DNA from: Escherichia phage ETEP21B
Length of the DNA: 39,424 nucleotides
Sequence record: OR979722.1
Reading direction: 5' to 3' (one strand)
Shown here piece after piece: positions 20,869 to 22,839 of the stretch. The notes beneath the pieces were generated by a model. It ran no database searches. It saw nothing but the letters and a program-made list of their open reading frames with translations, and had not been told where the DNA came from. The position numbers and the translations under genes were made by a program. The stretch's first letter is position 1; each line of letters opens with the position of its first letter.

Positions 20869-20891
20869 TAATACGACTCACTATTGGGAGA
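20869..20891 (+). promoter_or_regulatory. Phage RNAP promoter (phi10-like), TAATACGACTCACTATTGGGAGA; transcript 5' hairpin GGGAGAG...TCTCCC
   Basis: Consensus; long AT-rich leader with strong RBS AGAAGGAGA before the capsid gene. Confidence 0.9.
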
Positions 20892-20998
20892 GACATTACG
20901 TTCTCCCACTTTGAGTGATACACAATGAGAACCAACTCGTTTCAAGTAGTACCTCACATTTAAACTTTTTCATATAAATCAACAGAAGGAGATTCAAC

Positions 20999-22042
20999 AT
21001 GGCTAACATGAATGGTGGACAGCAGATGGGTAAAGACCAAGGTAAAGGCATGAGCGCTGGTGACAAACTGGCTCTGTTCCTGAAGGTCTTCGGTGGTGAA
21101 GTTCTGACTGCATTTACCCGTACCTCCGTAACTATGAACAAACACCTTGTGCGTTCTATTCAGTCCGGTAAGTCCGCGCAGTTCCCTGTGCTGGGTCGTA
21201 CCAAAGCTGCTTACCTGCAACCGGGTGAGAACCTCGATGACAAACGTAAAGACATGAAGCACACTGAGCGTACCATTAACATTGATGGCCTGCTGACTGC
21301 TGACGTTCTGATTTACGACATCGAAGACGCAATGAACCACTATGACGTGCGTTCTGAGTACACCGCACAGTTGGGTGAGTCTCTGGCTCTGGCTGCTGAT
21401 GGTGCGGTTCTGGCTGAAATGGCTAAACTGTGTAACCTTCCGTCCGCAAGCAACGAGAACATCGCTGGCTTGGGTACTGCAAGTGTACTGGAAGTTGGTG
21501 AAGCTGAAGCACTGCGAGCCGACCAAGTGAAGCTGGGTCAGGCAATCATCGCACAGTTGACTCTGGCTCGTGCACGACTGACTAAGAACTATGTTCCGGC
21601 TGCGGACCGTACCTTCTACACCACTCCTGATAACTACTCTGCGATTCTGGCTGCTCTGATGCCTAACGCGGCAAACTATCAGGCGCTGATTGACCCGGAA
21701 ACTGGTTCTATCCGCAACGTGATGGGCTTTGAGGTTATCGAAGTTCCGCATCTGACCGCTGGTGGTGCTGGCGAAGACCGTCCAGAAGAAGGTGTGAACC
21801 CGACTGGTCAGAAACACGCGTTCCCTGAGACCGCTAGTGGTGACACTAAGGTTGCTCTGGACAACGTTGTAGGTCTGTTCTGCCACCGCTCTGCCGTTGG
21901 TACTGTTAAGCTGAAAGACATGGCGCTGGAACGTGCTCGTCGTGCAAACTATCAGGCTGACCAGATTATCGCTAAATACGCGATGGGTCACGGTGGTCTG
22001 CGACCTGAAGCAGTAGGTGCGCTGGTTTTTCAAACGGCTTAA
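20999..22042 (+). CDS. 10A: Major capsid protein gp10A, 347 aa
   Basis: Collinear with T7 gp10A (GGQQMG, DKLALFLKVFGGEVLTAF, SGKSAQFPVLGRT, IDGLLTADVLIYDIEDAMNHYDVRSEY, KYAMGHGGLRPEA). Confidence 0.98.
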   Translation: MANMNGGQQMGKDQGKGMSAGDKLALFLKVFGGEVLTAFTRTSVTMNKHLVRSIQSGKSAQFPVLGRTKAAYLQPGENLDDKRKDMKHTERTINIDGLLTADVLIYDIEDAMNHYDVRSEYTAQLGESLALAADGAVLAEMAKLCNLPSASNENIAGLGTASVLEVGEAEALRADQVKLGQAIIAQLTLARARLTKNYVPAADRTFYTTPDNYSAILAALMPNAANYQALIDPETGSIRNVMGFEVIEVPHLTAGGAGEDRPEEGVNPTGQKHAFPETASGDTKVALDNVVGLFCHRSAVGTVKLKDMALERARRANYQADQIIAKYAMGHGGLRPEAVGALVFQTA

Positions 22043-22176
22043 CTTCTCGCAAACTCGTGGGGGACATTGAGTCCCTTACTGAAGTTGAGCAAGAGCTAAC
22101 GCCACAACAGAAAGCTGCCCGTACCCGTGCGGCAAACAAGGCTCGAAAGGAAGCTGAGTTAGCTGCGTCTATGTAA
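20999..22176 (+). CDS. 10B: Minor capsid protein gp10B made by programmed -1 frameshift near the end of 10A (slippery G GTT TTT C at 22024-22031); about 50-aa C-terminal extension
   Basis: -1 frame stays open from the slippery site to TAA at 22174-22176; same arrangement and extension length as T7 10A/10B. Confidence 0.65.
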
Positions 22177-22187
22177 CAACTATATGA

Positions 22188-22228
22188 AACCCCTTGGGTG
22201 CCTTCACGGGTGCTTGAGGGGTTTTTTT
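22188..22228 (+). terminator. Tphi-like late terminator: G-U-rich hairpin ACCCCTTGGGTGCC...GGGTGCTTGAGGGG followed by T7 run
   Basis: Sequence and position closely resemble T7 Tphi (AACCCCTTGGGGCCTCTAAACGGGTCTTGAGGGGTTTTTTG). Confidence 0.85.
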
Positions 22229-22248
22229 CGCTACAAGGAGACACACTT

Positions 22249-22839
22249 ATGCGTTCCTATGAAACAACCCTAGAGACAGGTGAAGAGTTGGCTGCTGTCA
22301 ATGACATCTTGGCCTCTATCGGTGAACCGCCAGTATCGACTCTGGAGGGTGACTCTAACGCCGATGTTGCCAACGCCCGTCGAGTTCTCAATAAGATTAA
22401 CCGACAGATTCAGTCTAAGGGCTGGACGTTCAACATTGAGGAAGGTCAACAATTGGTCCCCGATGTGTTCAACGGTCTGATTCCCTATATGTCCGACTAC
22501 CTGTCTGTGCTCTCTCAAGGCGACGCGACTGCTTACGTCAACCGTGGTGGGTACGTCTTTGACAGGACCACTGGCACCGATGTGTTCCAGAACCCTATCA
22601 CAGTGACTATCATCAAACTGAGAGAGTTCTATGAGATGCCTGAATGCTTCCGCTACTGGATTGTCACTAAGGCCGCTCGCCAGTTCAACAACCGATTCTT
22701 CGGTGCACCTGAGATTGACGCAGTGTTGGCTGAAGAAGAACAAGAAGCGAAGATGCAGTGTCATGAGTACGAACTGGACTTCGGTAACTTCAACATGCTT
22801 GATGGTGATGCCTTCACTGGTGGTCTACTGTCTCGTTAA
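22249..22839 (+). CDS. 11: Tail tubular protein A (gp11), 196 aa
   Basis: [75 protein letters not shown] match T7 gp11; start at ATG after AAGGAG. Confidence 0.96.

What the first reader, a model, noticed from the sequence alone, without database searches (positions are those of the whole stretch)
22022..22176. Programmed -1 frameshift producing a capsid 10B extension
The capsid gene ends ...CTG GTT TTT CAA ACG GCT TAA. The heptamer G GTT TTT allows tandem -1 slippage, after which the -1 frame stays open for about 48 codons to a TAA at 22174-22176, right before the Tphi-like terminator. This mirrors the T7 10A/10B arrangement and extension length.
Basis: partly seen in the sequence, partly recalled or inferred. 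Interest (0 to 1): 0.45.

Follow-up and report, generated by a model that had tools for sequence, protein, structure and literature searches.

The report
T7-type capsid 10A/10B frameshift site
This is the well-known trick of T7-like phages in which a fraction of ribosomes slip back one base near the end of the major capsid gene and add a 48-residue tail, seen here in a new Berlinvirus-type phage with a one-off spelling of the slippery site (GGTTTTT instead of GGTTTTC).

Summary
Gene 10A (20999-22042) ends CTG GTT TTT CAA ACG GCT TAA. The -1 frame is open only from 22009 to TAA 22174-76, and G_GTT_TTT (22024-30) is the only slippery motif in the 34-nt overlap.

- The window is a Berlinvirus-group T7-like phage.
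- The 48-aa tail is homologous to the T7 10B tail (E 1e-11) and to PHROG 12582.
- Its conserved core varies almost only at third codon positions of the -1 frame.
- N_GTT_TTC sits at the same place in 37 of 41 distinct relatives.
- In Kvp1 (same genus, capsid 93% identical) the trans-frame protein was found in virions by mass spectrometry.
- The predicted product is 392 aa (41.9 kDa), against 347 aa (37.1 kDa) for 10A.

The T5 spelling (UUU rather than UUC as A-site codon) was not found in any other sequence searched. A stable two-tier hairpin (22037-22090, -23.5 kcal/mol) starts 6 nt after the heptamer, encloses the 10A stop codon, and keeps its pairing through compensatory changes in divergent relatives. 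It is a likely local stimulator.

Overall this is an ordinary, already annotated kind of feature, so interest is low.

The parts
20869..20891 (+). phi10-type phage RNA polymerase promoter (TAATACGACTCACTATTGGGAGA) that drives the gene 10 mRNA
   Evidence: Read directly. BA14 and Kvp1 annotate a promoter 3 nt after the end of gene 9, and the window's motif starts 3 nt after its gene 9 stop. The likeness to the T7 promoter consensus rests on my own knowledge. Function is inferred.
20999..22042 (+). Gene 10A, major capsid protein, 347 aa, 37.1 kDa, stop TAA 22040-22042
   Evidence: ORF. Pfam PF21703 Gp10A-like, E 3.6e-107. 90-95% nt identity to Berlinvirus capsid genes. Mass.
22024..22030 (+). 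Slippery heptamer G_GUU_UUU (P-site Val GUU 22025-27, A-site Phe UUU 22028-30). It is the only slip-prone motif in the 0/-1 overlap 22009-22042.
   Evidence: 37 of 41 distinct relatives have N_GTT_TTC at the same position. The T5 spelling was not found elsewhere. G_GU is listed as the T7 gene 10 variant of X_XX in PMC5009743. U_UUC and U_UUU are among the three most shift-prone tetramers in E. coli (PMC4066793).
22030..22176 (+). 10B-specific coding region in the -1 frame: 48 codons (SNGLTSRKLVGDIESLTEVEQELTPQQKAARTRAANKARKEAELAASM) plus TAA 22174-76. The full trans-frame product is 344+48 = 392 aa, 41.9 kDa.
   Evidence: BLASTP to the T7 10B tail gives E 1e-11. PHROG 12582 'head protein', E 7e-20. 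In the 16-codon core, variable columns by codon position are 5/3/14. AF2 predicts a helix at tail residues 25-47 with pLDDT around 90 and a low-confidence linker.
22031..22036 (+). 6-nt spacer (CAAACG) between the heptamer and the base of the downstream hairpin
22037..22090 (+). Two-tier RNA hairpin. Outer stem 22037-46/22081-90 (10 bp, contains the 10A stop UAA), a 10-nt internal loop, inner stem 22057-65/22071-79 (9 bp) and a 5-nt loop. It is a candidate 3' stimulator of the shift.
   Evidence: -23.5 kcal/mol, z -4.52, 71% of the ensemble. RNAalifold finds it independently on 12 sequences. 98.2% of cells are paired, 5 pairs have changes on both sides, 0/500 shuffles reach the observed pairing, and slid controls reach 30-51%. 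The same fold is predicted in the divergent L020 and L110. A stimulatory role is inferred, not shown.
22186..22229 (+). Tphi-type intrinsic terminator: 18-bp hairpin 22186-22225 with CCCC at 22190-93, and a U7 run at 22223-29
   Evidence: -25.5 kcal/mol, z -5.05. Annotated as a terminator at the homologous place in BA14, FE44, Kvp1 and T7. A CCCC in the T7 terminator is reported to take part in gene 10 frameshifting (PMC5009743).

Best explanation
The feature is a programmed -1 ribosomal frameshift of the T7 gene 10 type.

The gene 10 mRNA runs from the phi10 promoter to the Tphi terminator. Most ribosomes read 10A to UAA 22040-42 and make the 347-aa major capsid protein. A minority slip back one base. 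With peptidyl-tRNA-Val on GUU (22025-27) and Phe-tRNA on UUU (22028-30), they re-pair on GGU-UUU (22024-29). They then read UCA at 22030, pass the 10A stop out of frame and terminate at UAA 22174-76. The product is a 392-aa 10B: residues 1-344 of 10A plus a 48-aa tail.

The tail is an acidic, probably flexible linker followed by a basic Ala/Lys/Arg-rich helix. By analogy with T7 and Kvp1, it is displayed on a minority of capsid subunits.

The slip is probably promoted by the two-tier hairpin 22037-22090, whose base lies 6 nt from the heptamer, at the ribosome's mRNA entrance. The terminator may also contribute, as reported for T7.

Shown here: the sequence anatomy, homology of the tail, coding selection in the -1 frame, conservation of the slip site, and conservation of the hairpin. 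Shown in relatives: the trans-frame protein in virions (Kvp1) and about 10% shifting in T7, as cited in PMC1635266 and PMC6498945. Inferred: that this particular G_GUU_UUU spelling shifts, at what rate, and that the hairpin is the stimulator.
For: - Anatomy.
- The window belongs to the Berlinvirus group, 90-95% identical across the capsid region. Relatives annotate 10B, a slippage site, or 'similar to the C-terminal tail of gp10B' at the same place. T7 and T3 carry joined 10B CDSs.
- Kvp1 10B was identified by MALDI MS/MS of a 43.6-kDa virion band, with the -1 shift placed at TTTTCA (PMC2579914).
- Tail homology: T7 10B, E 1e-11; PHROG 12582, E 7e-20. 133 database proteins match the tail profile, and those that carry names come from T7-like phages of Escherichia, Yersinia, Pectobacterium, Klebsiella, Erwinia, Pantoea, Morganella, Dickeya and Aeromonas.
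- Coding selection: in the core LTPxQxAARTRAANKA across 18 distinct sequences, minimum changes by codon position are 5/3/26.
- Slip site: GTT TTC is invariant in 37 of 41 distinct sequences, while flanking codons vary synonymously and the last three 10A codons vary freely.
- U_UUU is shift-prone in E. coli, slightly less so than U_UUC (PMC4066793).
- Hairpin.
Against: - No experiment exists on this phage.
- The exact heptamer G_GTT_TTT was found nowhere else: 0 of 40 other distinct relatives, 0 exact matches to a 20-base pattern in IMG/VR, and no 28-mer match among 50,697 phage records. Its efficiency is therefore untested.
- The tail is dispensable in at least some relatives. Yep-phi carries an in-frame TAG inside it.
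- Pairwise dN/dS against the closest relatives is near 1, because there are very few substitutions and the alignment includes the overlap region.
- Covariation for the hairpin rests on only three divergent sequences. One lineage with the same slip site (L112/L118) shows no comparable fold.
- The published T7 stimulator is a distant terminator element, not a local hairpin.
Confidence: 0.85

Rival explanations
1. The tail ORF is an inherited relic. In this phage the changed heptamer and 3' context (GGTTTTTCAAAC instead of GGTTTTCAAAAC) have reduced frameshifting to background. The tail stays open only because the change is recent, or because the RNA hairpin and terminator constrain the sequence.
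For: The spelling is unique. U_UUU is somewhat less shifty than U_UUC in E. coli. The tail is truncated by a stop in Yep-phi, so it can be lost. T7 10B is generally regarded as non-essential (my own knowledge).
Against: The tail is intact with no stop or indel. Its total length and frame relations match those of relatives. U_UUU is still among the three best tetramers in E. coli, and after the shift the A-site tRNA re-pairs on an identical UUU codon. The hairpin and spacer are unchanged.
Confidence: 0.08
2. The tail is made as a separate small protein (39 aa) by independent initiation at GTG 22057, as many database records imply by annotating a stand-alone 'capsid and scaffold protein' or 'hypothetical protein'.
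For: An ORF 22057-22176 with a GTG start is listed. Dozens of 30-55-aa stand-alone entries exist in the protein database.
Against: There is no Shine-Dalgarno sequence upstream of 22057 (CTTCTCGCAAACTC). In all listed close relatives that codon is GTA, not a start codon. Amino-acid conservation in the -1 frame runs upstream of it, back to the slip site. GTG 22057 lies inside the inner stem of the hairpin. In Kvp1 the tail peptides came from a 43.6-kDa band that also gave 70% coverage of Gp10.
Confidence: 0.02
3. The longer protein arises from transcriptional slippage. The phage RNA polymerase would delete one U in the T5 run, giving an mRNA in which the tail is in frame.
For: The window has a T5 run where relatives have T4. 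Long homopolymer runs are known sites of transcriptional slippage (PMC4066793; PMC5009743).
Against: A 5-nt run is far shorter than the runs that give appreciable polymerase slippage (my own knowledge; about 7-9 or more). Relatives make 10B with only T4. The conserved features (heptamer phase, 6-nt spacer, hairpin) are those of ribosomal, not transcriptional, slippage.
Confidence: 0.03
4. It is a chance open reading frame with no product.
For: 5.9% of mononucleotide shuffles of the segment are stop-free, so length alone is unremarkable.
Against: Homology to the T7 10B tail. Third-position-dominated variation. A conserved slip site. Mass-spectrometric proof in Kvp1.
Confidence: 0.01

Closest known systems
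Kluyvera phage Kvp1 gene 10A/10B (Berlinvirus), PMC2579914
   Same: Same genus-level group, with a capsid 93% identical. The 10A and 10B lengths are the same (347/392 aa). The tail is the same apart from a few residues. The hairpin and terminator are the same. 10B was proven in virions by MS, with the shift at TTTTCA.
   Different: Kvp1 has G_GTT_TTC AAC AAG. The window has G_GTT_TTT CAA ACG. The tail ends ...AATE in Kvp1 and ...AASM here.
Phage T7 gene 10A/10B -1 frameshift (Condron, Atkins and Gesteland 1991, as cited in PMC5009743, PMC1635266 and PMC6498945)
   Same: A G_GU-type heptamer sits 16 nt before the 10A stop. The tail core LTPxQxAARTRAANKARKEAELAA is homologous. The Tphi terminator with CCCC follows the tail. 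A two-tier hairpin enclosing the stop codon is predicted 7 nt downstream. About 10% shifting is reported for T7.
   Different: The A-site codon is UUC in T7 and UUU here. The T7 tail is 56 aa with a different linker. The T7 overlap window is 64 nt against 31 nt before the stop here. In the T7 group the hairpin is supported only by one-sided changes.
Phage T3 / phiYeO3-12 gene 10A/10B
   Same: A -1 shift occurs near the end of the homologous capsid gene, and two capsid products result.
   Different: The shift is on a lysyl-type heptamer C_CCA_AAG, and the tail is an 84-aa Ig-like Big_2 domain (Pfam E 4.7e-10). Neither feature is present here.
Escherichia phage BA14 gene 10
   Same: Same Berlinvirus tail, hairpin and terminator.
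   Different: BA14 reads CTG GTT TTA AAA AAG. This puts the classical A_AAA_AAG heptamer in phase, 3 nt downstream of the usual site.
E. coli dnaX and IS-element -1 frameshift cassettes
   Same: In-phase slippery heptamer, a 5-7-nt spacer, and a stable 3' stem-loop (PMC4066793, PMC5009743).
   Different: There is no convincingly placed upstream Shine-Dalgarno-like stimulator. AGGTG at 22015-19 lies only 4 nt upstream and is not conserved, being AGGCG in BP12A and P483. The heptamer is G_GUU_UUU rather than A_AAA_AAG.

Membership tests
T7-type gene 10A/10B capsid -1 frameshift (Studiervirinae) | The upstream gene is a T7 gp10A-type major capsid protein | tested here: met
   PF21703 Gp10A-like, E 3.6e-107, residues 61-343. 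90-95% nt identity to Berlinvirus capsid genes.
T7-type gene 10A/10B capsid -1 frameshift (Studiervirinae) | A -1 frame ORF overlaps the last codons of 10A and extends about 40-55 codons beyond its stop | tested here: met
   The -1 frame is open 22009-22173, with 44 codons beyond the 10A stop.
T7-type gene 10A/10B capsid -1 frameshift (Studiervirinae) | An in-phase slippery heptamer N_GUU_UUY lies within the overlap, 16-19 nt before the 10A stop | tested here: met
   G_GTT_TTT at 22024-30, 16 nt before the stop. 37 of 41 distinct relatives have N_GTT_TTC at -16 or -19. The window differs in the last base.
T7-type gene 10A/10B capsid -1 frameshift (Studiervirinae) | The tail is homologous to the T7 10B tail and under purifying selection in the -1 frame | tested here: met
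   BLASTP E 1e-11. PHROG 12582, E 7e-20. Core variable columns by codon position are 5/3/14.
T7-type gene 10A/10B capsid -1 frameshift (Studiervirinae) | A Tphi terminator with a CCCC element lies downstream of the tail (reported long-range stimulator in T7) | tested here: met
   The element is present at 22186-22229, with CCCC at 22190-93, about 160 nt from the heptamer (PMC5009743). Only its presence was tested, not its function.
T7-type gene 10A/10B capsid -1 frameshift (Studiervirinae) | A trans-frame protein is actually made and incorporated into capsids | not testable with these tools
   Shown for Kvp1 and cited for T7. Not shown for this phage.
T3-type capsid frameshift (lysyl heptamer, Ig-like tail) | A C_CCA_AAG-type heptamer and a Big_2 Ig-like tail | tested here: not met
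   The window has no CCAAAG in the overlap. The tail has no Pfam hit, whereas the T3 tail hits Big_2.
dnaX-type cassette (5' SD-like element + heptamer + 3' stem-loop) | A Shine-Dalgarno-like stimulator about 10-14 nt upstream of the heptamer | tested here: not met
   The only SD-like run is AGGTG 22015-19, 4 nt upstream. It lies within a Gly codon and is not conserved in relatives. The spacing rule comes from my own knowledge.
dnaX-type cassette (5' SD-like element + heptamer + 3' stem-loop) | A stable 3' stem-loop 5-9 nt after the heptamer | tested here: met
   Hairpin 22037-22090, 6-nt spacer, -23.5 kcal/mol, covariation-supported.
Rfam-curated frameshift elements | A match to any Rfam covariance model | tested here: not met
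   Only a chance-level lncRNA hit (E 0.48) in 21900-22300.

The most novel reading that the evidence does not exclude
The conserved two-tier hairpin that starts 6-7 nt after the heptamer and encloses the 10A stop codon may be the main local stimulator of gene 10 frameshifting in Berlinvirus, and probably in the T7 group as well. In that case the linker part of the 10B tail would be shaped more by RNA pairing than by protein function.

I did not find this element described in the papers I could read. They name only the slip site, a 'potential pseudoknot' at the terminator (Kvp1), and a CCCC in the T7 terminator.

The window's unique G_GUU_UUU CAA spelling would then be a natural allele for asking how the A-site codon and its 3' neighbour tune the 10A:10B ratio.
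Probability: 0.3. Interest if true: 0.35.

Novelty: new member of a known kind. Interest (0 to 1): 0.15.

Why it matters
For annotation: gene 10 of this phage should carry a joined 10B CDS (20999..22030, 22030..22176). The 39-aa GTG ORF should not be called as a separate gene, an error visible in many database records.

For biology it adds little. The 10A/10B arrangement has been known since 1991 and is experimentally verified in the same genus.

Two modest points of value remain. First, this is a natural UUU-for-UUC variant of an otherwise almost invariant slip site. Second, comparative evidence points to a local hairpin stimulator, which could explain how T7-like phages set the 10A:10B ratio. 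That could also be useful for T7-type display vectors, which exploit this site.

Tried and rejected
1. Within-genome baseline of -1 extension lengths. It was uninformative: 14 of 41 genes have extensions of 40 codons or more, mostly because the next gene lies in that frame.
2. Whole-ORF pairwise dN/dS. It is confounded by the overlap with 10A and by very few substitutions among close relatives. I replaced it with codon-position counts on the non-overlapping core.
3. Exact-pattern search for the T5 spelling in IMG/VR and a 28-mer megablast in 50,697 phage records. Neither found anything.
4. Rfam scan. No family matched.
5. PDB sequence search. Only 10A-length chains matched, and no solved tail.
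6. Pfam on the tail. No hit.
7. An upstream SD-like stimulator. Rejected: wrong spacing and not conserved.
8. Pairing between the G-run 22059-63 and the terminator CCCC. Not pursued, because the G-run is not conserved in T7 relatives.
9. The primary T7 papers (PMC209055, PMC328964, PMC5952207) are not held. What I say about them comes from the papers that cite them or from memory, and is marked as such.
10. The metagenome scan added few new capsid-linked tails. Most of its hits were unrelated proteins that share the short motif.

Full report
**What is in the sequence**

The window is a complete-length (39.4 kb) T7-like phage genome. The long ORF 20999-22042 encodes a 347-aa protein that matches Pfam Gp10A-like, the major capsid protein, at E 3.6e-107.

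The -1 frame has a TGA at 22006-08 and is then open to TAA 22174-76. Any change of frame that reaches the tail must therefore happen within 22009-22042. The only slip-prone motif there is G_GTT_TTT at 22024-30.

A shift on that heptamer gives ...GALVF then SNGLTSRKLVGDIESLTEVEQELTPQQKAARTRAANKARKEAELAASM. That is 48 added residues, for a 392-aa, 41.9-kDa protein against 37.1 kDa for 10A. Nine nucleotides after the tail's stop codon begins an 18-bp terminator hairpin with a U7 run (22186-22229; -25.5 kcal/mol, z -5.05). Upstream, TAATACGACTCACTATTGGGAGA at 20869-91 is a phi10-type phage promoter.

**Is it more than chance?**

Length alone is not convincing. 5.9% of mononucleotide shuffles of the segment are stop-free. 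The real -1 frame of gene 10A does carry 36 stops in 346 codons, which gives P about 0.0024 for 55 open codons. A within-genome comparison was confounded by neighbouring genes. The decisive evidence is comparative.

**Relatives**

The capsid region is 90-95% identical to Berlinvirus phages such as Carena, ErnstBeyeler, P483, Kvp1, BA14, FE44 and BP12A. No record is identical. These records treat the site as follows:
- Kvp1 and FE44 carry a joined 10B CDS.
- BP12A has a 'potential frame slippage site'.
- BA14 has a note, 'similar to C-terminal tail of gp10B'.

T7 and T3 have their classical joined 10B CDSs.

I collected 41 distinct sequences in which an AARTRAANKA-type tail follows a capsid gene. 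Of these, 37 have N_GTT_TTC in phase, 16 or 19 nt before the 10A stop. Meanwhile the codons on either side vary synonymously, and the last three 10A codons vary freely. That pattern is nucleotide-level selection on the slip site.

The tail core LTPxQxAARTRAANKA is invariant or nearly so at the protein level across 18 distinct DNA sequences. Minimum changes by codon position are 5, 3 and 26, and 14 of 16 third positions vary. That pattern is protein-coding selection in the -1 frame.

Further homology:
- The window tail aligns to the T7 10B tail at E 1e-11.
- It matches PHROG 12582 'head protein' at E 7e-20.
- A profile search found 133 database proteins. The named ones are short ORF calls from T7-like phages of nine host genera.

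**Experimental anchor**

In Kvp1 a 43.6-kDa virion band gave 70% coverage of Gp10 plus three peptides unique to the -1 tail. The authors concluded programmed -1 frameshifting at TTTTCA (PMC2579914). Their peptide at m/z 2244.12 fits the Kvp1 counterpart of window peptide LVGDIESLTEVEQELTPQQK, with Thr in place of Ile. This is my own mass arithmetic.

For T7, about 10% frameshifting is cited in PMC1635266 and PMC6498945. The review PMC5009743 lists G_GU as the T7 gene 10 form of X_XX. It also notes that a CCCC in the terminator more than 200 nt downstream is involved.

**What is particular to this window**

Relatives read GGTTTTCAAAAC/GGTTTTCAAAAAG. The window reads GGTTTTTCAAAC. The total length is unchanged: either two adjacent substitutions or a T insertion plus an A deletion relative to P483. 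The A-site codon is therefore UUU instead of UUC, and the first tail residues are S-N instead of Q-N/Q-K.

This spelling occurs in none of the other 40 distinct sequences. A 20-base pattern spanning it has no exact match in IMG/VR. No 28-mer match exists among 50,697 phage records.

After the slip the Phe-tRNA re-pairs on an identical UUU. In E. coli, U_UUC and U_UUU are the second and third most shift-prone tetramers, after A_AAG (PMC4066793). I therefore expect the site to work, perhaps at a somewhat different rate. This is inference.

**A likely stimulator**

Folding the RNA downstream of the heptamer gives a two-tier hairpin with these parts:
- a 6-nt spacer;
- a 10-bp outer stem (22037-46 with 22081-90) that contains the 10A stop codon;
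- a 10-nt internal loop;
- a 9-bp inner stem (22057-65 with 22071-79);
- a 5-nt loop.

Its energy is -23.5 kcal/mol, z is -4.52, and it makes up 71% of the ensemble.

RNAalifold found the same structure on its own in an alignment of 12 sequences. When I counted that structure on the alignment, 98.2% of cells were paired, against 30-51% when the 3' partners were slid. Five pairs had changes on both sides, and 0 of 500 shuffles reached the observed pairing. The divergent L020 and L110 fold identically despite different arm sequences.

The T7 group shows the same architecture, with a 7-nt spacer and a stem enclosing UAA, but only one-sided changes. Several other lineages (L022, L023, L107/L108, L064) also have strong hairpins starting 0-3 nt after the heptamer. 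One lineage (L112/L118) does not.

Caveats. The covariation rests on three divergent sequences. The structure was first seen in one of the aligned sequences. The region also codes for the tail linker.

**The tail itself**

A single-sequence AlphaFold model gives a confident helix for tail residues 25-47 (pLDDT around 90) and a low-confidence N-terminal linker. The linker is acidic (pI 4.4) and the helix very basic (pI 11). No solved structure covers it and Pfam has no model for it.

Its function is unknown. By analogy it decorates a minority of capsid subunits. It appears dispensable in some phages, since Yep-phi has an in-frame TAG inside it.

**Rivals**

- Independent initiation at GTG 22057. 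There is no SD. The codon is GTA in close relatives. Conservation extends upstream of it. It lies inside the hairpin stem. The Kvp1 tail peptides came from a 43.6-kDa band.
- Transcriptional slippage on T5. This is unlikely, because the run is short and relatives make 10B with T4.
- A relic tail with a dead slip site. This cannot be excluded without an experiment. It is disfavoured by the intact ORF, spacer and hairpin.
- A chance ORF. This is excluded.

**Verdict**

This is a new member, with a unique slip-site spelling, of a well-known and already annotated kind, and interest is low. The hairpin evidence is the only part that might add to what is known.

Noticed in passing
L001 (BA14, EU734171) 1350-1368: BA14 replaces GTT TTC AAA AAG with GTT TTA AAA AAG. 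This puts the classical, highly efficient A_AAA_AAG heptamer in phase, 3 nt downstream of the usual site. The same tail is thus reached through a different slip site.
   Followed up: partly
L016 / L087 (Yersinia phage Yep-phi, HQ333270), in-frame TAG about 46 nt after the 10A stop (exact locus coordinate not verified): The 10B tail frame is interrupted by an in-frame TAG (GAG to TAG, ...LTEV*QELTPQQ...). Any frameshift product therefore lacks the conserved basic helix, which suggests the tail is dispensable in that phage.
   Followed up: partly
L017 (Pectobacterium phage PP74, KY084243) and L074: Capsids 93% and 78% identical to the window's keep the N_GTT_TTC heptamer (GGTTTTC in L017, AGTTTTC in L074). 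The -1 tail, however, is a quite different 89-98-aa sequence with no Pfam hit. DNA around the PP74 gene 10 end (capsid 3' end plus tail, 401 nt) matches 302 phage records over at least 80% of its length, many from Klebsiella and some annotated 'minor capsid protein'. T3's tail is a Big_2 Ig-like domain. Tails appear to be swapped as modules behind a fixed shift site.
   Followed up: partly
P0052, P0064, P0067, P0071, P0072, P0075, P0089; L109/L135, L115, L130, L133, L134, L137: The short motif ELTP(A/Q)QKAA(R)TRA(A/R)NKA, preceded by an acidic stretch, also occurs in unrelated proteins. Examples are 80-100-aa proteins (some with DUF7210), a protein on 108-230-kb contigs, a small protein encoded next to an unidentified 149-aa ORF, and what looks like the N-terminal region of a sigma-70-type factor. 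It may be a portable basic-helix module, or it may be compositional convergence.
   Followed up: partly
protein database hits P0001-P0062: Many T7-like phage records annotate the tail as a stand-alone 30-55-aa 'capsid and scaffold protein', 'head protein' or 'hypothetical protein' rather than as a joined 10B CDS. This is a systematic annotation artefact.
   Followed up: no
L019 (Yersinia phage PYPS50 type), after the tail stop; also H46-H49, H60-H70: In PYPS50 and some Yersinia pestis phages, about 170 nt with its own SD-ATG ORF is inserted between the 10B stop and the terminator. The terminator is therefore not always adjacent to the tail.
   Followed up: no
L112, L117-L123: A lineage with the same GGTTTTC site and a 39-aa tail shows no stable hairpin after the heptamer (z about 0). 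Either its stimulator differs, or the hairpin is not required everywhere.
   Followed up: no
window 20869-20915: The phi10 promoter differs from the T7 class III consensus at a single base. It is followed by a 5' stem-loop (GGGAGA...TCTCCC), as in the T7 gene 10 leader. The comparison with T7 is from memory.
   Followed up: no
L126 (metagenome OEQX01000092): One Berlinvirus-like metagenomic sequence has GTCCCTTCC instead of GTCCCTTAC. This breaks the second pair of the inner stem (U-A to U-C) and changes Leu to Pro in the tail. It is the only clear pair-breaking change I saw in the close group.
   Followed up: no
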